Positions 1 to 19,749 of a stretch of 19,836 nt of DNA are shown one piece after another. This DNA is from a virus, in the UHGV virus genome UHGV-0279810; one strand, 5' to 3'. Both the position numbers and the translations under genes were made by a program. The notes beneath the pieces were generated by a model that worked only from the letters and a program-made list of their open reading frames with translations, was not told the DNA's origin and made no database searches. The number at the start of each line of letters is the position of its first letter. Within the stretch, counting starts at the first letter, position 1.

Positions 1-150
1 CGAGGCAATTTGCGTAGTTCACGGTAAGCCCCCATTGTCGGCAGGCCAACCGTTTTACATTGCGGAATGCGCCACGTTGACGCCCATGCGGTAACAGCCG
101 CGGCAGTGTCTTTCAGCGGTCTGCCGGTACCGTTATCGAGCTGACCATCC
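1..150 (-). pseudogene. Inverted, diverged partial copy of a P2-type gene A segment (homologous to + strand 413-562); runs off the left window edge
   Basis: Reverse complement of 1-150 aligns base-for-base with 413-562 with about 9 mismatches, mostly at third codon positions. In the gene A reading frame on the + strand there is a TGA at 78-80, so this stretch is not a continuation of the downstream A ORF. Confidence 0.6.
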
Positions 151-179
151 TCAAGGATAATGATTTACAGGTCTACGGT

Positions 180-1310
180 TTGCGAGTCGTCGAGCCACAC
201 CACGACGGAACGCCGCACTGGCATATGATGCTTTTTTGTAATCCACGCCAGCGTAACCAGATTATCGAAATCATGCGTCGCTATGCGCTCAAAGAGGATG
301 GCGACGAAAGAGGAGCCGCGCGAAACCGTTTTCAGGCAAAACATCTTAACCGGGGCGGTGCTGCGGGATATATCGCGAAATACATTTCAAAAAACATCGA
401 CGGCTATGCACTGGATGGTCAGCTCGATAACGACACCGGCAGGCCGCTGAAAGACACTGCAGCGGCTGTTAGCGCATGGGCGTCAACGTGGCGCATCCCG
501 CAATTTAAAACGGTTGGCCTGCCGACAATGGGGGCTTACCGTGAACTACGCAAATTGCCGCGCGGCGTCAGCATTGCTGATGAGTTTGACGAGCGCGTCG
601 AGGCTGCACGCGCCGCCGCAGACAGTGGTGATTTTGCGTTGTATATCAGCGCGCAGGGTGGGGCAAATGTCCCGCGCGATTGTCAGACTGTCAGAGTCGC
701 CCGTATCCCGTCGGATGACGTTAACGAGTACGAGGAAGAAGTCGAGAGAGTGGTCGGCATTTACGCGCCGCATCTCGGCGCGCGTCATATTCATATCACC
801 AGAACGACGGACTGGCGCATTGTGCCGAAAGTTCCGGTCGTTGAGCCTTTGACTTTAAAAAGCGGCATCGCCGCGCCTCGGAGTCCTGTCAATAACTGTG
901 GAAAACTCACCGGTGGTGATACTTCGTTACCGGTTCCCACACCTTCTGAGCACGCCGCAGCAGTGCTTAATCTGGTTGATGACGGTGTTATCGAATGGAG
1001 TGACCCGGAGGTCGTGAGGGCGCTCAGAGGTGCATTAAAACACGGTCGGAGAACGCCAAATCGTCAGCAAAGAAACGGAAGCCCGTTAAAACCACATGAA
1101 ATTGCACCATCGGCCAGACTGGCCCGGTCGGAACGAATGCAAATTACCCGTATCCGCGTTGACCTTGCTCAGAACGGTATCAGGCCGCAGCGATGGGAGC
1201 TTGAGGCGCTGGCGCGTGGCGCGACCGTAAATTATGACGGGAAAAAATTCACGTATCCGGTCGCTGATGAGTGGTTCGGATTTCAAGATGAAGTGTCATT
1301 TTTTATATAA
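180..1310 (+). CDS. A: Replication initiation endonuclease gpA (rolling-circle Rep), 3' portion only; 5' part not contiguous in this window
   Basis: ORF translation has a His-hydrophobic-His motif (PHWHMMLF) followed about 50 residues later by paired tyrosines (GYIAKYISKN), as in HUH rolling-circle initiators. Position immediately upstream of the P2 tin/old slot. Frame is open back to 81 but no ATG/GTG start; the ORF track begins at a TTG. Confidence 0.8.
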   Translation: MRVVEPHHDGTPHWHMMLFCNPRQRNQIIEIMRRYALKEDGDERGAARNRFQAKHLNRGGAAGYIAKYISKNIDGYALDGQLDNDTGRPLKDTAAAVSAWASTWRIPQFKTVGLPTMGAYRELRKLPRGVSIADEFDERVEAARAAADSGDFALYISAQGGANVPRDCQTVRVARIPSDDVNEYEEEVERVVGIYAPHLGARHIHITRTTDWRIVPKVPVVEPLTLKSGIAAPRSPVNNCGKLTGGDTSLPVPTPSEHAAAVLNLVDDGVIEWSDPEVVRALRGALKHGRRTPNRQQRNGSPLKPHEIAPSARLARSERMQITRIRVDLAQNGIRPQRWELEALARGATVNYDGKKFTYPVADEWFGFQDEVSFFI

Positions 1311-1384
1311 AAAACGTTAAAATTCAATGCAATGAAGGCATAGAGGAGGTCGCTTTAATATGTTTTATGTTTAATATTTATTAA

Positions 1385-1413
1385 TTGTTTATTTAATATA
1401 AAAAAATATTATA
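1385..1413 (+). promoter_or_regulatory. Candidate sigma70 promoter for the cargo operon (TTGTTT -N16- TATTAT)
   Basis: TTGTTT at 1385-1390 and TATTAT at 1407-1412 in the AT-rich stretch after the A stop. Many alternative AT-rich hexamers exist nearby, so this is weak. Confidence 0.2.
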
Positions 1414-1449
1414 TATAGGGAGATCAAATACAACGGTTTACTTGTTATG

Positions 1450-1726
1450 ATGCAAACATTGGTTAGTTAGTGAGATACATCGCCATCAATTGGGTAACTT
1501 TACCCGTGGAAAGTTAACGCTTTCTAACATTTACCCCGCGCAACGCCCCTGCCAGCGACAAGAGTCACAGGATCAGGCGGTATGGCGTATGGGTATTCGA
1601 ACCCTTTGGGCGACCAAGGGTTCGTGGAGCAGGGGGCTAGTGCTGTTCAATCTCATCCTTATGAGGGCGAACCATAGTGTTGGAGCAGACATATCGTTTG
1701 CACACTATGGGCATAAGGAGCAAATC
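1450..1726 (+). ncRNA. Candidate structured non-coding RNA / regulatory leader upstream of the HTH-RT module (possible retron msr-msd); boundaries not resolved
   Basis: No ribosome-binding site for the ORF-track reading frame. Hairpins read by eye: CGAACCCTT-N9-AAGGGTTCG (1598-1624) and CCATAGTGT-N21-ACACTATGG (1672-1710). Near-palindrome GGGTAA-CT-TTACCC (1492-1505) and a second TTTACCC at 1530-1536. A retron RT gene normally has its ncRNA directly upstream. Confidence 0.25.
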
Positions 1727-1882
1727 ATGAAGAATGATAAATTAACCAACGAACAGCAGGCGCAGAACAAGTCAAACCTGAAAAAGTGGGCTGGTTATGT
1801 TTGGAAATTAATCAAATGGGGTATTAGACTGTTTGATTTAGCCACTCGAGCACTGGACTACTTTGAAGGGGGTGATGAGTAA
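1727..1882 (+). CDS. Small hypothetical protein (51 aa), first gene of the cargo operon
   Basis: ATG at 1727 preceded by AAGGAG (1715-1720) at good spacing. It is the only part of ORF 1490-1882 with a ribosome-binding site. Product MKNDKLTNEQQAQNKSNLKKWAGYVWKLIKWGIRLFDLATRALDYFEGGDE has a Trp-rich amphipathic segment. Confidence 0.45.
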   Translation: MKNDKLTNEQQAQNKSNLKKWAGYVWKLIKWGIRLFDLATRALDYFEGGDE

Positions 1883-1906
1883 TGCGTCCTCCCTAGTTTC
1901 AATAGC

Positions 1907-2239
1907 ATGGAGTTGCCTATGTTACACAGAGCCCTTCGTTTAATAAGGCAATACCATAAAGAGTCATTGGTTGATTTATCAACATCTTTAGGTATTCCAA
2001 AAGAAAAAATAGTAGAACTCGAAAGTGGGGTTTGGTCGCCTACAATTGATGTTTTACAGCGTTACGCCTCCCATTTCGATATGCCGGTATCTTCTTTAGT
2101 ATTTTTTTCAGAATCGTTAGGTACGCAGGGGCGTTTATCTAAGCGTTTCCGTTTAAATTTAGCTGGTAAAGTATTAGATGTTATTGAGTGGGCGAATAAG
2201 AAAAATGAAAAGACGAATAAAACTCAAAATTTCCACTAA
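1907..2239 (+). CDS. XRE-family helix-turn-helix DNA-binding protein (about 106-110 aa)
   Basis: Translation contains a classic XRE HTH (SLVDLSTSLGIPKEKIVELESG...SPTIDVLQRYASHF). Alternative start ATG at 1919 has a better GGAG upstream. Its 3' end abuts or overlaps the RT gene. Confidence 0.7.
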   Translation: MELPMLHRALRLIRQYHKESLVDLSTSLGIPKEKIVELESGVWSPTIDVLQRYASHFDMPVSSLVFFSESLGTQGRLSKRFRLNLAGKVLDVIEWANKKNEKTNKTQNFH

Positions 2240-3155
2240 AAATAAATCTTACGATATAATTGATTCGCCGTTTTATAAAATGAGAAGTAAAAGGAAATTG
2301 GCTTCTTTATTGGGGGTTGATGTAGGGGATTTATCAACCTTAAAAAAAGATGAAGGCAATTATTCTATTTTTGAACAGTTATCTAAAAACGGAAAGCCAC
2401 GTAAGATACAAAAACCATTAGAAAAATTAGATGTGGTGCATACTCGTATTGCAAGTCTGCTATCGCGAATTACCTTGCCAGATTATCTACATTCTGGAAA
2501 GAAGGGATGTTCTAATGTTACTAATGCTAAAATCCACCTTAATAATGAAAGGTTGATGACAACCGACATCAGGGCTTTTTTTCCATCAACTACTAGAGAA
2601 ATGATATTTTCATTCTTTTTTTCTGTTATGAAGATGTCATCTGATGTTGCGGATGTATTATCGTATATATGTACTTGCTATGGGCGTTTGCCTACAGGTA
2701 GCAGGATTAGTATGCCTCTTGCATATTTTGCAAATTCAAGAATGTTCGGAGAAATACACCAACTTTGTAATAAACTACACGTAAATATGTCTGTTTATGT
2801 TGATGATCTAACTTTTTCAGGACAAAACGTTAATAGACTATTTTGTTCAGTGATTCGCAAAATAATAAATAAGCATGGTCATGTGATGCATGCGGATAAA
2901 ACAAAAATTTATAGTAGAGAAAAGCCTAAGTTGGTAACAGGTGTTATTGTTTTGGGCGGTTCTTTAAAAGTCAGGAATAAGCAGCATCTTTTAATGTCTC
3001 AAGAAATTGAATATTGGAAAATGATAAAGGATGCAGCGTGTGCAAGAGAAACTCATACTGCCAAAAAGTTATTTGGACGATTGCATTCTATGGGGGTAAT
3101 TGAACAACGTTATAGATCAAAGGTGCTTACATTAAAAGCAAGTACTGCACTTTAA
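2178..3155 (+). CDS. Retron-type reverse transcriptase (about 291-325 aa depending on start)
   Basis: RT motifs in the translation: DIRAFFPS (motif 4-like), SVYVDDLTFSG (catalytic YxDD), NAKIH (retron NAxxH motif) and KLVTGVIVLGG (retron VTG motif). Size matches retron RTs of about 300-320 aa. Possible starts at 2178, 2205 or 2280. Confidence 0.85.
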   Translation: MLLSGRIRKMKRRIKLKISTKNKSYDIIDSPFYKMRSKRKLASLLGVDVGDLSTLKKDEGNYSIFEQLSKNGKPRKIQKPLEKLDVVHTRIASLLSRITLPDYLHSGKKGCSNVTNAKIHLNNERLMTTDIRAFFPSTTREMIFSFFFSVMKMSSDVADVLSYICTCYGRLPTGSRISMPLAYFANSRMFGEIHQLCNKLHVNMSVYVDDLTFSGQNVNRLFCSVIRKIINKHGHVMHADKTKIYSREKPKLVTGVIVLGGSLKVRNKQHLLMSQEIEYWKMIKDAACARETHTAKKLFGRLHSMGVIEQRYRSKVLTLKASTAL

Positions 3156-3206
3156 TACAGGTTCCTGTAAGTGATTATATTGTTCTTAAGATACTTACTG
3201 ATGTTA

Positions 3207-3236
3207 TTTCCCCGTAGCCTTAATTTCTGCGGGGAA
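3207..3236. terminator. Hairpin between convergent RT and FRG genes (possible bidirectional terminator)
   Basis: TTTCCCCGTAG (3207-3217) pairs with CTGCGGGGAA (3227-3236) around a 9-nt loop; a T-rich run follows on the + strand only. Confidence 0.3.
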
Positions 3237-3263
3237 GTATGGAGATATTTTGGTTATGGAATG

Positions 3264-4628
3264 CTAATTTTTTAATGTGTATTTTTCTGTGATTAGTTTC
3301 ATTGTTCTTTCCAATCCTAAATATACAGTGGCATCAGTAATATTGAGCACGGCAAGTTCTTTTAAAATTTTCTTTTTGTCTCTGATGTTTATTTTTTCTG
3401 TCTTAAAGTTGTATGGTGAATTATCTGCCTGATCGTTGGATATCTCAGGAAAAACGGCGTTATTACCGAATAATAAAAAGGCACCGGATTGAGATGATAT
3501 TCTTTCATTATTTATCCTGCTTTTTACAAAAATTATCTTTTCCAAATCATCTGGATTTATTATGCTTTGAAAATATGGTTTTTCATGCTTTATGGATTCT
3601 AAGAGTTTAAGGCAAGCATGAGAGTTGTTAAAATCATTATTTCTTTCTTCGAAAGAAAGCTTGTCTTTCATGTCTTTTGATAGCATGCATAAATTAGATA
3701 TGCAACTGACAGTGTCGGAATCGAAAAATTTAATGTTCTCTCTGTGTGTTTTAAATATTATTACTTGACCATCGATATCGTTTTTGTCGGAATTTATACT
3801 ACTGCATGCAAAATAAAGTGCAATTAATGGATTTGATGTGATGTCAAGTAAGCGAGTAGGTATGCCATAATGTTGCATTCTTACAAGTTTATCAAGCATT
3901 GATGTATCATCAATGAATTCTGAGGGTCTTGCGCTCAATGCTTCTTTAACAAGGTTGATTTCATTATGTAGAAATTTATAGTTCCCATTTTCATATTTTC
4001 TGAAAAGAGATGGTGCAAGTTCATAAGATGAATCTGAATGACCCCTGTAAAAAATCTCCTCATCCATATCTGCTGTTATATGGAGAACTTTTTCAATAAA
4101 TTCTTGTAAACTATTTACGGTTAATAATGTGCTATCTTCGTCTGGGAGAGGCGCTGGACTGCTATCCACTTGTGCATTTTGGTTAATACCAAATGTCTTA
4201 AGGATATCATCTATATTTTTGTCTTTTATGGCCCAGTGTGTTCTTTTAAGGCCATAAGTTCCGAGTTCTAAACTGCTTTCAACACTTTTGGCGTCTGATA
4301 TTTTGATTTCATTGTGTGTATGGGTGATTGCAAATTGGAAGTTGATTTCTTTTCCCTTAATGTGAATATTTGAAATTCTTCCAATTCGTATGTCGACATA
4401 ATAAGGTTTTGCTCCCTCTATTTGATAAGCTTCACTCATGAATATTGTTGGGAGTTTTTCAAGATAAGATAGTACATTGCTGCTTAATGGGGATAGTTTT
4501 TTGCGAATACCATCGGAGGTGTTTTCAAACATTCGTGATAAAAGAAATGAGAATTCTCCATTATTTTGGCTGAATGGTTTCCAGTGGTCGTAGTGGTCGG
4601 GAAAACCACCCATAATTAAATTAATCAT
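3264..4628 (-). CDS. FRG-domain protein (454 aa), candidate defence protein; N- and C-terminal regions of unknown function
   Basis: Central region carries the FRG-domain signature: FYRGHSDSSYELAPSLFR ... MQHYGIPTRLLDITSNPLIALYFA. AT-rich, lies in the P2 tin/old slot, convergent to the RT operon. Start ATG at 4628 with a weak AGGT ribosome-binding site. Confidence 0.65.
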   Translation of the reverse strand: MINLIMGGFPDHYDHWKPFSQNNGEFSFLLSRMFENTSDGIRKKLSPLSSNVLSYLEKLPTIFMSEAYQIEGAKPYYVDIRIGRISNIHIKGKEINFQFAITHTHNEIKISDAKSVESSLELGTYGLKRTHWAIKDKNIDDILKTFGINQNAQVDSSPAPLPDEDSTLLTVNSLQEFIEKVLHITADMDEEIFYRGHSDSSYELAPSLFRKYENGNYKFLHNEINLVKEALSARPSEFIDDTSMLDKLVRMQHYGIPTRLLDITSNPLIALYFACSSINSDKNDIDGQVIIFKTHRENIKFFDSDTVSCISNLCMLSKDMKDKLSFEERNNDFNNSHACLKLLESIKHEKPYFQSIINPDDLEKIIFVKSRINNERISSQSGAFLLFGNNAVFPEISNDQADNSPYNFKTEKINIRDKKKILKELAVLNITDATVYLGLERTMKLITEKYTLKN

Positions 4629-4911
4629 AATTACCTGTTCATCTGATGTAGGTGTAGGAATGCTTGTTGTTTGTTATGGTAATGTTAACGCTTGTTGGTG
4701 GCAACTACTATTACTACTTGCTGTTAGAGCTAAGACATTTTTTGATTGCTTGTAATGATAGCGAGCCTTTAACTAACTGGGATTTTGAAAAAATAAATGA
4801 ATTGTCAATTTCCTGAGATTTTTATTACTGCATTCATTAAGTGCATTTTTTTGCGTGTGTTAGTTGCCATGCTTTTCCATGTTTGTTACCAGTGTTGATG
4901 CGGTTACTGTG

Positions 4912-4933
4912 TTTTAATGCAATTGCATTAAAA
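4912..4933. repeat. 22-bp perfect palindrome TTTTAATGCAATTGCATTAAAA about 20 bp left of cos
   Basis: Exact self-complementary sequence read directly; candidate protein-binding site or hairpin. Confidence 0.6.
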
Positions 4934-4952
4934 GCGCCCTATGAAGCGGGCG

Positions 4953-4971
4953 GGCGAGGCGGGGAAAGCAC
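4953..4971. other. cos: P2-type cohesive end site (cos), 19-nt GGCGAGGCGGGGAAAGCAC
   Basis: Matches the 19-nt cohesive-end sequence of phage P2 as I recall it, and sits at the expected place between the tin/old slot and gene Q. Confidence 0.7.
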
Positions 4972-5113
4972 TGCGCGCTGGCGGTGGTGCGGATTTTATT
5001 TTTTCAGCGTCTGAGCGCGTCGTGAAGGCGTTTACTTGGCCTGCTAGGGCGTTGGTGTGTCTGCGGGGTGTTTTGTGCGGTGGTGAGCGTGTGAGGGCGT
5101 GATGACGGGGTGT

Positions 5114-5135
5114 AAAAAAGCCGCCCGCAGGCGGC
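5114..5135 (-). terminator. Rho-independent terminator after Q (minus strand)
   Basis: GCCGCC-CGCA-GGCGGC hairpin (5120-5135) followed on the minus strand by TTTTTT (complement of 5114-5119), just downstream of the Q stop. Confidence 0.55.
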
Positions 5136-5140
5136 GATGT

Positions 5141-6175
5141 TCAGCCGTTGTCAGTGTCCAGTGAGTAGTTTTTAAAGCGGATGACCTCCTGGCCGAGCCA
5201 GCCGTTTATTTCCCGAATCCTGTCCTGTAACGGGATTAGCTCATTGCGGACAAAGACCTTTGCCACTTTCTCAATATCACCCAGTGACCCGACGTTCTCC
5301 GGCTTGCCACCCATCAACTGAAAGGGGATGCGGTGTGCGTCCAGCAGGTCAGCGGCGCTGGCTTTTTTGATATTAAAAAAATCGTCCTTCGTCGCCACTT
5401 CACTGAGCGGGATAATTTTAATGCCGTCGGCTTTCCCCTGCGGGGCATAGAGAAACAGGTTTTTAAAGTTGTTGCGGCCTTTCGACTTCACCATGTTTTC
5501 GCGAAGCATTTCGATATCGTTGCGATCCTGCACGGCATCGGTGACGTACATGATGTATCCGGCATGTGCGCCATTTTCGTAATACTTGCGGCGGAACAGC
5601 GTGGCCGACTCATTCAGCCAGGCAGAGTTAAGGGCGCTGAGATATTCCGGCAGGCCGTACAGCTCCTGATTAATATCCGGCTCCAGCAGGTGAAACACGG
5701 AGCCGGGCGCGAAGGCTGTCGGCTCGTTGAAGGACGGCACCCACCAGTAAACATCCTCCTCCACGCCACGGCGGGTATATTTTGCCGGTGAGGTTTCCAG
5801 TCTGATGACCTTACCGGTGGTGCTGTAACGCTTTTCCAGAAACGCATTACCGAACACCAGAAAATCCAGCACAAAGCGGCTGAAATCCTGCTGGGAAAGC
5901 CACGGGTGCGGGATAAACGTTGAAGCCAGAATATTACGTTTGACGTAAATCGGTGAGCTGTGATGCACGGCAGCACGCAGGCTTTTTGCCAGACCGGTAA
6001 AGCTGACCGGCGGCTCATACCATCTGCCGTTACTGATACATTCGACGTAATCCAGAATGTCACGGCGGTCGAGCACCGGCACCGGCTCACCAAAGGTGAA
6101 TGCCTCCATTTTCGGGGCGCTGGCGGTCATTTTTTTTGCCGCAGGTTGCGGTGTTTTCCCTTTTTTCTTGCTCAT
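5141..6175 (-). CDS. Q: Portal protein gpQ
   Basis: 344-aa product with Lys-rich N-terminus MSKKKGKTPQPAAKK; P2 order cos-Q-P on the minus strand; ATGA start/stop overlap with P. Confidence 0.9.
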   Translation of the reverse strand: MSKKKGKTPQPAAKKMTASAPKMEAFTFGEPVPVLDRRDILDYVECISNGRWYEPPVSFTGLAKSLRAAVHHSSPIYVKRNILASTFIPHPWLSQQDFSRFVLDFLVFGNAFLEKRYSTTGKVIRLETSPAKYTRRGVEEDVYWWVPSFNEPTAFAPGSVFHLLEPDINQELYGLPEYLSALNSAWLNESATLFRRKYYENGAHAGYIMYVTDAVQDRNDIEMLRENMVKSKGRNNFKNLFLYAPQGKADGIKIIPLSEVATKDDFFNIKKASAADLLDAHRIPFQLMGGKPENVGSLGDIEKVAKVFVRNELIPLQDRIREINGWLGQEVIRFKNYSLDTDNG

Positions 6176-16989: not shown

Positions 16990-19749
16990 ATGAGCACGAA
17001 ATTTAAAACCGTTATCACTACTGCCGGAGCCGCGAAGCTGGCAGCCGCCACTGTTCCCGGCGGGAAAAAAGTAAACCTGTCTGCAATGGCTGTGGGTGAC
17101 GGTAATGGCCAATTGCCGGTGCCGGATGCCGGTCAGACGAAACTGGTGCATGAAGTCTGGCGTCATGCACTGAATAAAGTCAGTGTGGATAACAAGAATA
17201 AAAACTATATCGTGGCTGAACTGGTTGTTCCGCCAGAAGTGGGCGGCTTCTGGATGCGTGAGCTTGGTCTGTATGACGATGCCGGAACACTGATTGCGGT
17301 ATCCAACATGGCAGAAAGCTATAAGCCAGAACTGGCTGAAGGCTCCGGACGTGCGCAGACCTGCCGCATGGTTATTATTCTCAGCAACGTGGCGTCCGTT
17401 GAGCTGAGTATTGATGCCAGCACAGTGATGGCGACGCAGGATTACGTCGATGACAAAATCGCAGAGCATGAGCAGTCCCGCCGCCATCCTGACGCCACGC
17501 TGACAGAAAAAGGTTTTACTCAGTTAAGCAGTGCAACAAACAGCACCAGTGAAAAGCAGGCTGCAACGCCAAAGGCAGTAAAAGCAGCCTATGACAATGC
17601 TGAGAAACGTCTGCAGAAAGACCAGAACGGTGGCGATATTCCAGATAAGGACGCTTTTCTGGACAATGTTGGCGTTACCAGCCTGACGTTTATGAAAAAC
17701 AATGGCGAAATGCCGCTTGATGCTGATCTGAATACATTTGGTCCCGTTAAGGCTTATCTGGGAATCTGGTCTAAAACTACCTCAACTAACGCAACACTGG
17801 AGAAAAATTTCCCGGAAGATAATGCTGTCGGTGTGCTTGAGGTTTTTGCTGCCGGCAATTTTGCAGGTACGCAACGCTTCACCACGAGAGACGGCAATGT
17901 ATACATACGCAGACTCGCCAATAAGTGGAATGGCTCTGATGGTCCGTGGGGCATATGGCGTCACACTCAATCAGCTACCCGCCCTTTGAGTACGACTATA
18001 GACCTGAATACGCTTGGAGCCGCCGAACATCTTGGTTTATGGCGTAACAGTAGCTCGGCTATAGCTTCATATGAACGCAATTATCCAGAGGAAGGCGGCT
18101 TTGCTCAGGGGATGCTTGAGATCCTCGAAGGCGGAAATTATGGAAGAACGCAACGTTATACCACTCGCCGTGGAAATATGTATGTCCGCTGCCTTGCGGC
18201 AAGCTGGGATGCATCAAATCCGCAGTGGGAACCGTGGTTAAGAGTCGGTCATCAGTCAGAGAGTCGTTATTACGAAGGTGATTTGAATGATGTAACCTCA
18301 CCAGGTATTTACAGCGTTACAGGTAAAGCGACCAACGGTCCAGTACTGGACGGAAACGGCGTGACTGTACTCGGCATTCTGGAAGTGTTGAGGCGGTTTG
18401 ATGGTGTTAATGTATGGCAGCGTTATACAACTGCCGGAACAGGTACAACCCTTAAAGGCCGCACCTTTGAGCGCGTCTTTACCGGCAGCTCATGGAGCGA
18501 ATGGCGGGAAGTCTACACCTCGTATTCACTTCCCCTGAATCTGGGTATCGGCGGTGCTGTGGCAAAGCTCACCAGCCTGGACTGGCAGACCTACGATTTT
18601 GTGCCGGGCAGTCTGATAACCGTTAGGCTGGATAATATGACCAATATTCCCGACGGTATGGACTGGGGCGTCATTGATGGCAACCTGATAAACATCGCAG
18701 TTGGTCCGAGTGATGATTCCGGTACGGGGCGCTCAATGCATGTATGGCGCAGCACTGTAAGTAAAGCGAACTACCGATTTTTTATGGTGCGTATTTCAGG
18801 AAATCCGGGAAGCCGCACGATCACAGCAAGACGAGTACCAATCATTGACGAAGCCCAGACATGGGGCGCGAAACAGACATTCAGTGCTGGCCTTTCTGGT
18901 GAACTGTCCGGCAATGCGGCGACAGCAACAAAGCTGAAAACAGCCCGTAAAATTAATAACGTTTCGTTTGATGGAACATCAGATATTAACCTGACGCCGA
19001 AAAATATTGGTGCATTTGCTTCAGGAAAAACAGGAGACACCGTTGCGAATGATAAAGCCGTTGGGTGGAACTGGAGTAGCGGAGCCTATAACGCAACTAC
19101 TGGTGGGGCATCAACGTTAATTCTTCATTTTAATATCGGTGAAGGAAGTTGTCCCGCCGCCCAGTTCCGCGTTAATTATAAGAACGGCGGTATTTTTTAT
19201 CGTTCTGCTCGTGACGGTTACGGATTCGAGGCTGACTGGTCTGAGTTTTATACCACAACGCGAAAACCTACAGCGGGAGATGTCGGTGCACTGCCGTTAT
19301 CTGGTGGTCAATTGAATGGTGCTCTGGGTATAGGAACATCCAGTGCTCTTGGCGGTAATTCGATTGTTTTGGGTGATAATGACACGGGCTTTAAACAAAA
19401 TGGTGATGGTAATCTGGATGTTTATGCTAATAGCGTCCATGTTATGCGCTTTGTCTCGGGAAGTATTCAAAGTAATAAAACCATAAATATTACGGGGCGT
19501 GTTAATCCCTCGGATTACGGTAACTTTGATTCCCGCTATGTCCGGGATATCCGGCTTGGTGGTGCTGCCACATACAAACCTGCGAACAATGGCATGACAT
19601 GGACACATCAGGCACCGTCCGGGTGTGTATATTCCGGCATTATTGTTCAGGATACCGGCTCAAACTCTGCCGATAACATTGGTGGTGTATATTACAGACC
19701 GGTTCAGAAATACATTAACGGGACATGGTATAACGTGGCGCAGGTATAA
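16990..19749 (+). CDS. H: Tail fibre protein gpH (919 aa), P2-like N-terminal anchor with three tandem ~85-aa repeats and a distinct C-terminal receptor-binding region
   Basis: N-terminus MSTKFKTVITTAGAAKLAAA is typical of P2-family tail fibres; three internal repeats share DLNT...G.W...GTQRYTTR.GN.Y.R...W; followed directly by G. Confidence 0.88.
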   Translation: MSTKFKTVITTAGAAKLAAATVPGGKKVNLSAMAVGDGNGQLPVPDAGQTKLVHEVWRHALNKVSVDNKNKNYIVAELVVPPEVGGFWMRELGLYDDAGTLIAVSNMAESYKPELAEGSGRAQTCRMVIILSNVASVELSIDASTVMATQDYVDDKIAEHEQSRRHPDATLTEKGFTQLSSATNSTSEKQAATPKAVKAAYDNAEKRLQKDQNGGDIPDKDAFLDNVGVTSLTFMKNNGEMPLDADLNTFGPVKAYLGIWSKTTSTNATLEKNFPEDNAVGVLEVFAAGNFAGTQRFTTRDGNVYIRRLANKWNGSDGPWGIWRHTQSATRPLSTTIDLNTLGAAEHLGLWRNSSSAIASYERNYPEEGGFAQGMLEILEGGNYGRTQRYTTRRGNMYVRCLAASWDASNPQWEPWLRVGHQSESRYYEGDLNDVTSPGIYSVTGKATNGPVLDGNGVTVLGILEVLRRFDGVNVWQRYTTAGTGTTLKGRTFERVFTGSSWSEWREVYTSYSLPLNLGIGGAVAKLTSLDWQTYDFVPGSLITVRLDNMTNIPDGMDWGVIDGNLINIAVGPSDDSGTGRSMHVWRSTVSKANYRFFMVRISGNPGSRTITARRVPIIDEAQTWGAKQTFSAGLSGELSGNAATATKLKTARKINNVSFDGTSDINLTPKNIGAFASGKTGDTVANDKAVGWNWSSGAYNATTGGASTLILHFNIGEGSCPAAQFRVNYKNGGIFYRSARDGYGFEADWSEFYTTTRKPTAGDVGALPLSGGQLNGALGIGTSSALGGNSIVLGDNDTGFKQNGDGNLDVYANSVHVMRFVSGSIQSNKTINITGRVNPSDYGNFDSRYVRDIRLGGAATYKPANNGMTWTHQAPSGCVYSGIIVQDTGSNSADNIGGVYYRPVQKYINGTWYNVAQV

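What the first reader, a model, noticed from the sequence alone, without database searches (positions are those of the whole stretch)
1311..4952. AT-rich accessory island in the P2 tin/old slot, between the A stop and cos
The segment between the end of A (1310) and the cohesive end site (4953) is where P2 carries tin and old and is a known hotspot for anti-phage cargo in P2-like prophages. Here neither tin nor old is recognisable. The segment is visibly AT-richer than the flanking phage backbone and holds four reading frames with defence-like domains (small ORF, HTH, retron-type RT, FRG-domain protein). This is the most likely location of a novel system in the window.
Basis: partly seen in the sequence, partly recalled or inferred. 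Interest (0 to 1): 0.6.

Follow-up and report, generated by a model that had tools for sequence, protein, structure and literature searches.

The report
Retron plus FRG gene in P2 hotspot
The AT-rich stretch between the replication gene and the packaging site of this P2-like prophage is a known cargo hotspot, and here it carries two separate anti-phage modules: a Type VI retron of an already described kind, and an untested single-gene candidate (an FRG-domain protein).

Summary
Window 1311-4952 has 35% GC against 54-56% in the flanks. It lies between the gene A stop (1310) and the cos 19-mer (4953-4971), and holds the four reading frames described.

The island is not one novel system. It is two separable cargo modules in the known P2 A-to-Q defence hotspot.

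Module 1 (about 1465-3155, + strand) is a complete Type VI retron:
- a roughly 450-nt structured hybrid RNA that carries the reverse-transcription template and the 51-aa small-protein (SP) toxin gene with its ribosome-binding site (RBS) sequestered;
- an HTH protein;
- a retron reverse transcriptase (RT).
It aligns end to end with the locus I identified as the characterised Retron-Vpa2 (RT 54% identical, HTH 50%).

Module 2 (3264-4628, - strand) is an FRG-domain protein, PADLOC candidate PDC-S15. Both modules, with these exact protein accessions, are already listed in Rousset et al. 2022. The retron and the FRG gene each occur without the other.

The most interesting residue is the FRG protein. 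Its unannotated N-terminal domain models confidently and resembles PUA-like EVE/YTH reader domains. Relatives of that domain are fused to many other defence effectors. No experimental test of this protein was found in the searchable library.

Verdict: new member of a known kind, moderate to low interest.

The parts
1311..1464 (+). AT-rich spacer (24% GC) after the gene A stop. Its 3' end (about 1425-1475) is conserved among retron variants and probably holds the retron promoter (candidate TTGTTA 1442-1447, 16 nt, TAGTTA 1464-1469).
   Evidence: Sequence; conservation starts at about 1425 in alignment A2; GC. The promoter is read by eye; the consensus scan did not call it.
1465..1918 (+). Hybrid RNA (hyRNA) of the Type VI retron: a structured non-coding part (msr-msd) followed by the embedded SP coding sequence and the 3' inverted-repeat arm.
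   Evidence: Iterated nhmmer finds this roughly 468-nt element (window 1465-1932, slightly past the HTH start) upstream of Type VI RTs in 38 sequences, including the Vpa2 locus L096:1752-2228. MFE -157.6 kcal/mol, z = -5.6. Covariation across 33 sequences: 65% of cells paired against 41-46% when partners are slid; 0 of 500 shuffles reach the observed value.
1491..1525 (+). Two conserved 5' stem-loops (1491-1506 and 1508-1525).
   Evidence: 93-98% and 88% of cells paired, with many compensatory changes, e.g. A-U to G-C in 16 of 33 sequences at one pair.
1533..1594 (+). Hairpin of variable length and sequence (62 nt here); candidate core of the msd, the template for msDNA.
   Evidence: It is the most variable segment of the alignment, with an 18-nt insertion in the Klebsiella phage. 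It corresponds to the long stem-loop covered by the 63-nt msDNA in Retron-Vpa2. This assignment is an inference.
1597..1625 (+). Perfect hairpin CGAACCCUU/AAGGGUUCG whose loop carries direct repeat 1, GGGCGAC (1608-1614).
   Evidence: It matches the '7-nt direct repeat in a loop of the msd' described for Type VI retrons.
1626..1637 (+). [quoted passage not shown]
   Evidence: Helix 14: 77% of cells paired, 7 of 12 pairs with compensatory changes. Its four-pair core (columns 269-272 with 584-587) was also predicted by RNAalifold.
1641..1648 (+). UGCUGUUC, pairing with GAACAGCA (1751-1758) inside SP codons 9-11.
   Evidence: Helix 15: 97.7% of cells paired, 8 of 8 pairs with compensatory changes.
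1656..1719 (+). Riboregulator hairpin. UCCUUAUG (1656-1663) pairs with CAUAAGGA (1712-1719) and covers the SP RBS AAGGAG (1715-1720). Direct repeat 2, GGGCGAA (1665-1671), lies in its loop.
   Evidence: MFE fold. Helix 16: 72% of cells paired, 7 of 8 pairs with compensatory changes. The two repeats change together across lineages.
1727..1882 (+). SP, the 51-aa small protein and predicted toxic effector (MKNDKLTNEQQ...DYFEGGDE).
   Evidence: RefSeq WP_001754918; phrog_15287, 3e-39. An equivalent 47-56-aa ORF is present in 33 of 33 Type VI loci. Weak similarity to Vpa2 SP, including the C-terminal F-[ED]-G-G-D motif.
1884..1896 (+). 3' arm (GCGUCCUCCCUAG) of the long-range inverted repeat, just after the SP stop codon.
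   Evidence: Identical in all five enterobacterial variants although the SP codons vary; covariation.
1919..2239 (+). HTH protein (106 aa, Cro/C1-type), predicted repressor of reverse transcription and/or antitoxin. An alternative start lies at 1907.
   Evidence: PADLOC HTH_VI, 7e-30. 50% identical to Vpa2 HTH, including Arg7. RefSeq WP_016239054.
2205..3155 (+). Retron reverse transcriptase (316 aa); overlaps the HTH gene by 35 nt.
   Evidence: PADLOC RT_VI, 1e-105, against 5e-45 for the next retron type. The YVDD, NAxxH and VTG motifs are present; their Y-V-D-D, N-A-H and T-G positions are invariant among 27 homologues. 54% identical to Vpa2 RT. RefSeq WP_023148839.
3264..4628 (-). FRG-domain protein (454 aa), a single-gene candidate defence protein. 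N-terminal sensor-like domain: residues 1-150 (nt 4179-4628). FRG (ART-like) region: residues about 170-454 (nt 3267-4121).
4953..4971 (.). cos cohesive-end sequence; right-hand boundary of the hotspot.
   Evidence: Sequence. The linear genome of phage P2_2H1 ends just here.

Best explanation
The island is the cargo of the P2 gpA-to-gpQ(cos) hotspot and consists of two independent anti-phage modules.

Module 1 is a Vpa2-like Type VI retron. One transcript of about 450 nt (the hyRNA) carries the reverse-transcription template and the gene for a 51-aa toxic small protein (SP), whose ribosome-binding site is locked in a hairpin. The HTH protein and the RT are expected to sit on this RNA, with HTH holding reverse transcription down. 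Infecting phages that express recombination functions or RecBCD inhibitors (lambda Red-type) would let msDNA accumulate. The msDNA would then open the riboregulator, probably by pairing of the copied GGGCGAC repeat with the GGGCGAA loop. SP is translated and the infected cell stops growing (abortive infection).

Module 2 is a one-protein sensor-effector. An N-terminal PUA-like domain (EVE/YTH-like fold) is joined to a C-terminal FRG domain of the ADP-ribosyltransferase superfamily. It most likely senses a phage nucleic-acid feature or other phage cue and then consumes NAD+ or ADP-ribosylates a target.

Shown here: gene content, family membership, RNA structure conservation, and separability of the modules. 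Inferred by homology: trigger, msDNA production, SP toxicity. Inferred from fold and domain architecture only: everything about how the FRG protein acts.
For: Retron identity:
- RT_VI 1e-105 and HTH_VI 7e-30.
- Retron RT motifs.
- SP-HTH-RT order with a 35-nt HTH/RT overlap.
- I identified the Vpa2 locus as L096 from its 55-aa SP carrying K15, I39, F43 and F45 and its HTH carrying R7, the residues mutated in the paper. To this locus the window RT is 54% identical, HTH 50%, and SP about 33% over the C-terminal half.
- The 477-nt Vpa2 RNA region aligns end to end with window 1465-1932.

hyRNA structure:
- z = -5.6.
- Across 33 loci, 65% of cells are paired against 41-46% when partners are slid; covariation score 0.288 against 0.11-0.14; 0 of 500 shuffles reach the observed value.
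- The RBS-sequestering helix, the long-range inverted repeat and the helix into the SP codons all carry compensatory changes.
- The two 7-nt repeats change together across lineages.
- An SP ORF is present in 33 of 33 loci.

Mechanism of relatives: Zhang et al. 2025, doi 10.1101/2025.10.22.683967.

Separability of the two modules:
- Retron variants sit in the same slot with other downstream genes in O157:H7, ET350, EF7-18-58 and a Klebsiella phage.
- FRG homologues occur without an RT in P2-like prophages.
- None of 80 Type VI loci has an FRG gene within 3.5 kb.
- Rousset et al. list the two as separate systems.

FRG protein:
- Pfam and PADLOC hits; conserved over its full length.
- Relatives of the N-terminal domain are fused to Abi_C, a PD-T4-6-like kinase, a GmrSD/NsnA-like nuclease, a KAP NTPase, and TIR effectors.
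Against: - No expression, msDNA or phage-challenge data exist for this locus.
- Rfam has no model for this RNA and gave no hit.
- The related Retron-Sen3 works differently, with constitutive ssDNA and SP and HTH acting as antitoxin. Mechanism is therefore not uniform within Type VI.
- The similarity between window SP and Vpa2 SP is weak (E 0.012).
- The co-variation of the two repeats may reflect only one or two evolutionary events.
- No paper showing anti-phage activity or enzymology of an FRG protein was found.
- One relative fuses a CBASS cyclase to this domain plus FRG (P0282). That would fit a second-messenger receptor rather than a nucleic-acid reader.
Confidence: 0.75

Rival explanations
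1. The retron works as Retron-Sen3 does rather than as Retron-Vpa2 does. ssDNA and SP are made constitutively, HTH neutralises SP after translation as an antitoxin, and loss of RecBCD activity releases the toxin without any change in msDNA level.
For: Retron-Sen3 is also an enterobacterial Type VI retron with the same SP-HTH-RT order and an RNA that sequesters the SP RBS. In Vpa2 too, an HTH mutation is toxic. The two models therefore overlap.
Against: Sen3 belongs to the cl2075 lineage and has a 79-aa SP with an N-terminal extension. The window SP is 51 aa. Its RNA, RT and HTH align along their whole length with Vpa2, and it carries the direct repeats invoked for msDNA-dependent derepression. 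Eco12, an E. coli relative of Vpa2, made no detectable msDNA at rest.
Confidence: 0.2
2. All four genes form one integrated system, with the FRG protein as a retron effector or a second layer controlled by msDNA.
For: In all 60 complete E. coli genomes that carry this FRG allele, it sits next to this retron allele. The PUA-like domain could in principle bind ssDNA or RNA.
Against: The genes are convergent, with a separate strand and a separate promoter region. Another 39 E. coli genomes and the Klebsiella phages carry the retron with other neighbours. FRG homologues at 48-58% identity sit in P2-like prophages without any RT. None of 80 Type VI loci has an FRG gene. The 60 co-occurrences are at least 99% identical, so they amount to one inherited arrangement.
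Confidence: 0.05
3. The N-terminal domain of the FRG protein is a receptor for a nucleotide second messenger. The protein would then be an orphan CBASS/Pycsar-type effector that responds to a signal made elsewhere in the cell.
For: P0282 fuses a CD-NTase (PADLOC Cyclase, 1e-112) to this domain and FRG. Other relatives carry CAP12/Pycsar-type TIR or CBASS-type TIR effector domains.
Against: No cyclase lies in the island or beside the homologues whose neighbourhoods I examined. The same domain is also fused to a GmrSD-like nuclease, a kinase, a KAP NTPase and Abi_C, which are typical direct-sensing single-chain defences. The fold matches are to base-reader domains.
Confidence: 0.12
4. The cargo is not defensive or is inactive: decaying moron genes, or genes that serve the prophage in another way.
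For: This locus has never been tested. Gene A next to it is rearranged in this window, so the prophage may be defective.
Against: All four reading frames are intact and at least 99% identical across 60 genomes and in the deposited phage genome P2_2H1. The RNA structure is under selection. Relatives of the retron defend E. coli. The FRG family shows strongly conserved catalytic-looking residues.
Confidence: 0.05

Closest known systems
Retron-Vpa2 (Type VI retron, Vibrio parahaemolyticus; Zhang et al. 2025 bioRxiv 10.1101/2025.10.22.683967)
   Same: Same operon order: hyRNA with embedded SP, then HTH, then RT. The window RNA of about 450-470 nt aligns end to end with it. Shared features are the sequestered SP RBS, the long-range inverted repeat, the paired 7-nt loop repeats, HTH Arg7 and the C-terminal F-[ED]-G-G-D motif of SP. 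RT is 54% identical and HTH 50%.
   Different: Different host and carrier: a P2-like prophage hotspot rather than a Vibrio chromosome. SP is 51 aa rather than 55 and only weakly similar. The msd hairpin sequence is unrelated. No experimental data exist for this locus.
Retron-Eco12 (E. coli Type VI retron shown to block lambda vir; same preprint)
   Same: E. coli origin, Type VI, described as related to Vpa2. The window retron, or one of its 78-84% identical variants, could be this very element.
   Different: Identity cannot be checked. No Eco12 sequence or accession is in the text or supplements held.
Retron-Sen3 (Type VI, cl2075 lineage, Salmonella; Garcia-Rodriguez et al. 2026 bioRxiv 10.64898/2026.04.27.721009)
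   Same: SP-HTH-RT order, an upstream structured RNA that covers the SP RBS, an inverted repeat flanking SP, triggering by lambda Red or RecBCD loss, and abortive infection.
   Different: 79-aa SP of another cluster; constitutive ssDNA and SP; HTH acts as a post-translational antitoxin.
P2 hotspot systems 26 ('Type-VI retron') and 56 ('FRG') of Rousset et al. 2022 (PMC9122126, Table S5)
   Same: Same locus, between gpA and gpQ. The FRG protein sequence and the three accession numbers are the ones in this window.
   Different: That work only catalogued them. The main text does not name either among the systems it reports, and the retron's RNA and SP gene are not among the proteins shown for it in Table S5.
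PADLOC candidate PDC-S15 / Pfam FRG (PF08867), assigned to the ART superfamily by Aravind and co-workers
   Same: Full-length match of residues 168-451 to PDC-S15 models (7e-98). Weak structural matches to ART toxins.
   Different: The PDC-S15 models matched only residues 168-452, not the N-terminal 165 residues. That stretch forms a separate, portable domain.
P2 Old and Tin, the reference cargo of this slot
   Same: Same position in the phage genome. Old, like Type VI retrons, is linked to lambda exclusion and RecBCD status (abstract of 10.64898/2026.07.10.737580).
   Different: No sequence or domain relationship; no ABC ATPase or TOPRIM domain here.

Membership tests
Type VI retron | RT falls in the Type VI (clade 3) retron RT group | tested here: met
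   PADLOC RT_VI 1e-105 over profile positions 1-278 of 279; next best is RT_III-A at 5e-45. 54% identical to Vpa2 RT.
Type VI retron | Retron RT motifs (YxDD catalytic site, NAxxH, VTG) | tested here: met
   YVDD, NAKIH and LVTG are in the translation. N107/A108/H111, Y198-D201 and T245/G246 are invariant in 27 homologues. That these motifs define retron RTs is from established knowledge.
Type VI retron | Cro/C1-type HTH gene directly upstream of, or overlapping, the RT gene | tested here: met
   HTH_VI 7e-30; 35-nt overlap with the RT gene; 50% identical to Vpa2 HTH.
Type VI retron | Small protein (SP) gene upstream of HTH, with a hydrophobic C-terminal helix | tested here: met
   51-aa ORF with RBS at 1727-1882. 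An equivalent ORF is present in 33 of 33 loci. Weak similarity to Vpa2 SP. Toxicity was not tested.
Type VI retron | Structured hyRNA/ncRNA of about 470 nt spanning msr-msd and SP, with inverted repeats and a sequestered SP RBS | tested here: met
   Homology to the Vpa2 RNA region; z = -5.6; covariation.
Type VI retron | Conserved 7-nt direct repeats in an msd loop and in the riboregulator loop | tested here: met
   GGGCGAC at 1608-1614 and GGGCGAA at 1665-1671. The two repeats change together across lineages. The feature is described.
Type VI retron | RT-dependent msDNA and anti-phage abortive infection | not testable with these tools
   Shown only for Vpa2, Eco12 and Sen3 in the literature.
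FRG / PDC-S15 candidate defence protein | FRG domain above the Pfam gathering score, and a PDC-S15 profile match | tested here: met
   76.9 bits against a cut-off of 25; PDC-S15 7e-98.
FRG / PDC-S15 candidate defence protein | ADP-ribosyltransferase-superfamily fold | tested here: inconclusive
FRG / PDC-S15 candidate defence protein | Demonstrated anti-phage activity or NADase/ART activity | not testable with these tools
   No experimental paper found.
PUA-like reader domains (EVE / YTH / ASCH) | Fold similarity of the N-terminal 165 residues | tested here: met
PUA-like reader domains (EVE / YTH / ASCH) | Sequence or profile relationship to the family | tested here: not met
   No Pfam hit. No PDB hit with a single sequence or with a 24-sequence profile. 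I therefore describe it as 'folds like', not as a member.
P2 Old / Tin | Old: ABC ATPase plus TOPRIM. Tin: homology to P2 Tin. | tested here: not met
   No such domains in any frame of the island. Tin itself was not compared directly.
Abi-P2 type RT (the RT previously reported in this P2 slot; Odegrip 2006, cited) | Abi-type RT rather than a retron RT | tested here: not met
   All 25 PADLOC hits shown are models named as retron RT types. The gene has retron partners and a retron RNA.

The most novel reading that the evidence does not exclude
The FRG protein is a working single-chain immune sensor. Its unannotated N-terminal domain (signature motif R-T-H-W-A-x-K, PUA/EVE/YTH-like fold) would be a portable detector of a phage nucleic-acid feature, such as modified bases. 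Evolution would have plugged this detector onto at least seven effector types: FRG/ART-like, Abi_C, Ser/Thr kinase, GmrSD-like nuclease, KAP NTPase, two kinds of TIR, and a CD-NTase-FRG fusion. In that reading, this prophage pairs a recombination-sensing retron with a nucleic-acid-sensing NAD+-targeting effector. The domain may already carry a name in Burroughs and Aravind 2020 (J Bacteriol 202:e00365-20), which I could not read.
Probability: 0.3. Interest if true: 0.6.

Novelty: new member of a known kind. Interest (0 to 1): 0.35.

Why it matters
For the retron, the value is practical. This is a natural E. coli, phage-borne relative of Retron-Vpa2, with several 78-84% identical variants in other prophages. 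That makes a ready series of natural variants for testing how msDNA opens the SP riboregulator. It also shows that the P2 'old' slot can be filled by another abortive system of a kind whose tested relatives respond to lambda Red functions or RecBCD loss.

For the FRG gene, a positive phage assay would turn a database candidate (PDC-S15) into a validated defence. It would also give a first handle on a sensor domain shared by many effector classes.

Neither point changes current concepts; the island itself is already catalogued.

Tried and rejected
- Rfam at E up to 1 gave nothing for 1-6000.
- The consensus promoter/terminator scan was not above shuffled expectation and missed the likely retron promoter.
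- Retron-Eco12: I looked for a sequence in the text and supplements and found none.
- PDC-S15 and 'FRG domain' literature searches gave only passing mentions.
- Burroughs and Aravind 2020 is not held.
- PDB searches by sequence (single protein and N-terminal-domain profile) gave no credible hit. Foldseek against PDB had no hit below E 0.09.
- NCBIfam has no model for SP or FRG.
- RNAalifold on the MAFFT alignment recovered only 28 pairs. I therefore projected the window's MFE structure onto the alignment and counted pairs. That favours the window's own fold, so I rely on the compensatory counts and the slid controls rather than on percentage paired alone.
- No covariance model was built, because the element exceeds the practical size limit.
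- Neighbourhoods of distant N-terminal-domain relatives were mostly short contigs and uninformative.

Readings considered and rejected:
- FRG as the retron's effector.
- An Abi-P2-type RT.
- The 130-aa TTG frame 1490-1882 as a gene: it overlies conserved structured RNA, and only its last 51 codons are conserved as an ORF.

Full report
**Observation.**
- GC is 0.352 across 1311-4952. It is 0.542 in the gene A part and 0.555 in the 14.9 kb to the right.
- No window of the same size outside the island drops below 0.507.
- The gpA frame (Pfam Phage_GPA) stops at 1310.
- The 19-mer GGCGAGGCGGGGAAAGCAC lies at 4953-4971. I recognise it from memory as the P2 cohesive end.
- Portal Q and terminase P follow on the minus strand.
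- The island holds a small ORF, an HTH gene, an RT gene and, convergently, an FRG-domain gene. Nothing in it has Old-like or Tin-like domains.

**It is accessory, not backbone.** The whole island occurs at 99% identity or more in 60 of 5426 complete E. coli genomes. The retron half occurs in 99 genomes. A 150-nt piece of gene A occurs in 1556 genomes. The island is identical in the deposited phage P2_2H1.

**Module 1 is a Type VI retron.**
- PADLOC profiles give RT_VI at 1e-105 (next retron type 5e-45) and HTH_VI at 7e-30.
- The RT has the YVDD, NAxxH and VTG motifs. The Y-V-D-D, N-A-H and T-G positions are invariant among 27 homologues.
- RefSeq annotates a 51-aa hypothetical protein (1727-1882), a 106-aa HTH protein (1919-2239) and a 316-aa RT (2205-3155), which overlaps the HTH gene by 35 nt.

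Two recent preprints define this kind.
- Zhang et al. (10.1101/2025.10.22.683967) describe Retron-Vpa2. A roughly 470-nt hybrid RNA carries the msr-msd and a translationally repressed toxic small protein. HTH represses reverse transcription. Lambda Beta plus Exo trigger the system (the full Red operon, with Gam, does too). The accumulated msDNA derepresses SP translation.
- Garcia-Rodriguez et al. (10.64898/2026.04.27.721009) describe Retron-Sen3. There ssDNA and SP are constitutive, HTH is an antitoxin, and loss of RecBCD triggers the system.

**Link to Retron-Vpa2.** RT homologues include Vibrio parahaemolyticus proteins. One of their loci, L096, encodes a 55-aa SP with K15, I39, F43 and F45 and an HTH with R7. 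These are exactly the residues mutated in the Vpa2 paper, so I take L096 to be Retron-Vpa2. Against it the window RT is 54% identical, HTH 50%, and SP about 33% over the C-terminal half with the same F-[ED]-G-G-D end.

**The RNA.**
- Among five enterobacterial variants, conservation begins near 1425 and runs to the HTH start. The 40 nt after the SP stop codon are identical in all five although the SP codons vary.
- Window 1476-1910 folds at -157.6 kcal/mol, z = -5.6.
- I fetched 80 genomic loci around diverse Type VI RTs. Iterated nhmmer then found a homologous element of about 468 nt (window 1465-1932) in 38 sequences. The Vpa2 locus matches it end to end over 477 nt.
- On a 33-sequence alignment, RNAalifold predicted 28 pairs, 21 of them with compensatory changes.
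- I then projected the window's MFE structure onto the alignment. This gave 65.4% of cells paired against 41-46% with partners slid by 1-3 columns. The covariation score was 0.288 against 0.11-0.14, and 0 of 500 shuffles reached the observed values.

The best-supported elements are:
- two 5' stem-loops (1491-1525);
- a long-range inverted repeat, 1626-1637 with 1884-1896;
- a helix between 1641-1648 and SP codons 9-11 (97.7% paired, 8 of 8 pairs compensatory);
- a hairpin in which 1656-1663 pairs with 1712-1719 and buries the SP RBS (7 of 8 pairs compensatory).

Between the 5' stem-loops and the rest lie two further elements. One is a hairpin of variable length (1533-1594), the likely msd core. 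The other is a perfect hairpin (1597-1625).

Zhang et al. point to two conserved 7-nt direct repeats, one in an msd loop and one in the riboregulator loop. Here they are GGGCGAC (1608-1614) and GGGCGAA (1665-1671). Across lineages the two copies change together:
- GGTGA in both copies in 7 sequences;
- GGTGAT in both in 2 of those;
- GTGCGAA in both in 1 sequence.

This may reflect few evolutionary events. An SP ORF of 47-56 aa is present in all 33 loci. The window retron therefore meets every sequence-level feature of a Vpa2-like Type VI retron. msDNA production, the trigger and SP toxicity are inferred by homology.

**Module 2 is a separate gene.** The 454-aa minus-strand protein matches Pfam FRG (76.9 bits against a cut-off of 25) and PADLOC PDC-S15 (7e-98), both over residues of about 168-452.
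- Retron variants at 78-84% identity occupy the same slot in O157:H7, ET350, EF7-18-58 and Klebsiella phage ST147-VIM1phi7.1, with other downstream genes and no FRG gene.
- FRG homologues at 48% and 58% identity sit in P2-like prophages without an RT. One is in the same A-to-Q slot; the other lies between tail genes.
- None of the 80 Type VI loci has an FRG gene nearby.

**Prior cataloguing.** Rousset et al. 2022 (PMC9122126) defined this gpA-to-gpQ hotspot. They list the arrangement WP_016239054 + WP_016239053 + WP_023148839. In their curated table 'Type-VI retron' is system 26 (132 occurrences) and this exact FRG protein is system 56 (75 occurrences). The main text does not name either among the systems it reports.

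**What the FRG protein may be.**
- The family is large: more than 3500 hits, the 120 best nearly all full-length at 41-66% identity. Invariant motifs include Y-R-G-H, Q-H-x-G-x-P-T-R-L-L-D and S-D-T-V-S-C.
- An AlphaFold model from 42 sequences has pLDDT 81.
- There is no sequence-level link, and Foldseek found nothing significant. I therefore say it folds like these readers, not that it is one.
- A HMMER scan of 1.84 billion representatives found the domain in 162 clusters with many protein lengths.
- Its partners include FRG, Abi_C, a PD-T4-6-like kinase, a GmrSD/NsnA-like nuclease, a QatA/PifA-like KAP NTPase, CAP12/Pycsar-type and CBASS-type TIR domains, and one CD-NTase-domain-FRG fusion.

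This is the pattern of a portable sensor module. What it senses is unknown. A nucleic-acid feature is my preferred guess; a nucleotide second messenger is the main alternative.

**Verdict.** Whether the retron is Retron-Eco12 itself cannot be decided, because no Eco12 sequence is available to me. The only part with real discovery potential is the FRG protein and its N-terminal domain.

Noticed in passing
window 1-150 and 413-562: The first 150 nt of the window are an inverted copy (95% complementary) of 413-562 inside gene A. Upstream of 151 the window no longer matches gene A of P2_2H1 or strain WP7-S17. Bases 1-150 instead match gpA of other P2-like prophages; in the one record where orientation can be read (H88, whose coordinates suggest it starts at gpA) the match is on the opposite strand. 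Gene A is therefore truncated here. The cause could be an inversion or recombination with a second, diverged A allele, or an assembly chimera.
   Followed up: partly
L063:1677-2555 (-), Pseudomonas veronii: A 292-aa protein whose N-terminus is related to the N-terminal domain of the window FRG protein (tblastn E 5e-4). Its C-terminus is weakly Nuc_deoxyrib_tr-like and CBASS-TIR-effector-like. It lies divergently just upstream of a Type VI retron.
   Followed up: partly
P0282 (760 aa, metagenomic representative): A single polypeptide that joins a CBASS-type CD-NTase (PADLOC Cyclase, 1e-112), the RTHW-motif domain and an FRG/PDC-S15 region. It hints that in some lineages this domain works downstream of a cyclase.
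   Followed up: partly
window 1608-1614 and 1665-1671; alignment A4: The two 7-nt loop repeats of the hyRNA change together across 33 Type VI retrons: GGCGA/GGCGA, GGTGA/GGTGA, GGTGAT/GGTGAT and GTGCGAA/GTGCGAA. This fits a direct interaction between the msDNA copy of one repeat and the RNA copy of the other.
   Followed up: yes
L005 6869-9170 (E. coli WP7-S17-ESBL-01): In this otherwise identical prophage, an IS21-family ISEc12 element (with istB frameshifted) is inserted between the FRG gene and the portal gene, in the cos-proximal region. That prophage is probably no longer packageable.
   Followed up: no
L007-L010 (Klebsiella pneumoniae prophages): A 58%-identical FRG homologue sits in a different variable slot of a P2-like prophage, between gpU and a tail-fibre gene. 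Next to it is an unannotated gene of 439-465 aa.
   Followed up: no
window 16990-19749: GC falls to 0.45-0.51 over the 919-aa plus-strand ORF at the right end of the window. By position this is presumably the tail-fibre gene. It is a second region of atypical composition.
   Followed up: no
window 3211-3235: A CCCCG...CGGGG inverted repeat lies between the convergent RT and FRG genes and may act as a shared terminator. The terminator scan did not call it.
   Followed up: no
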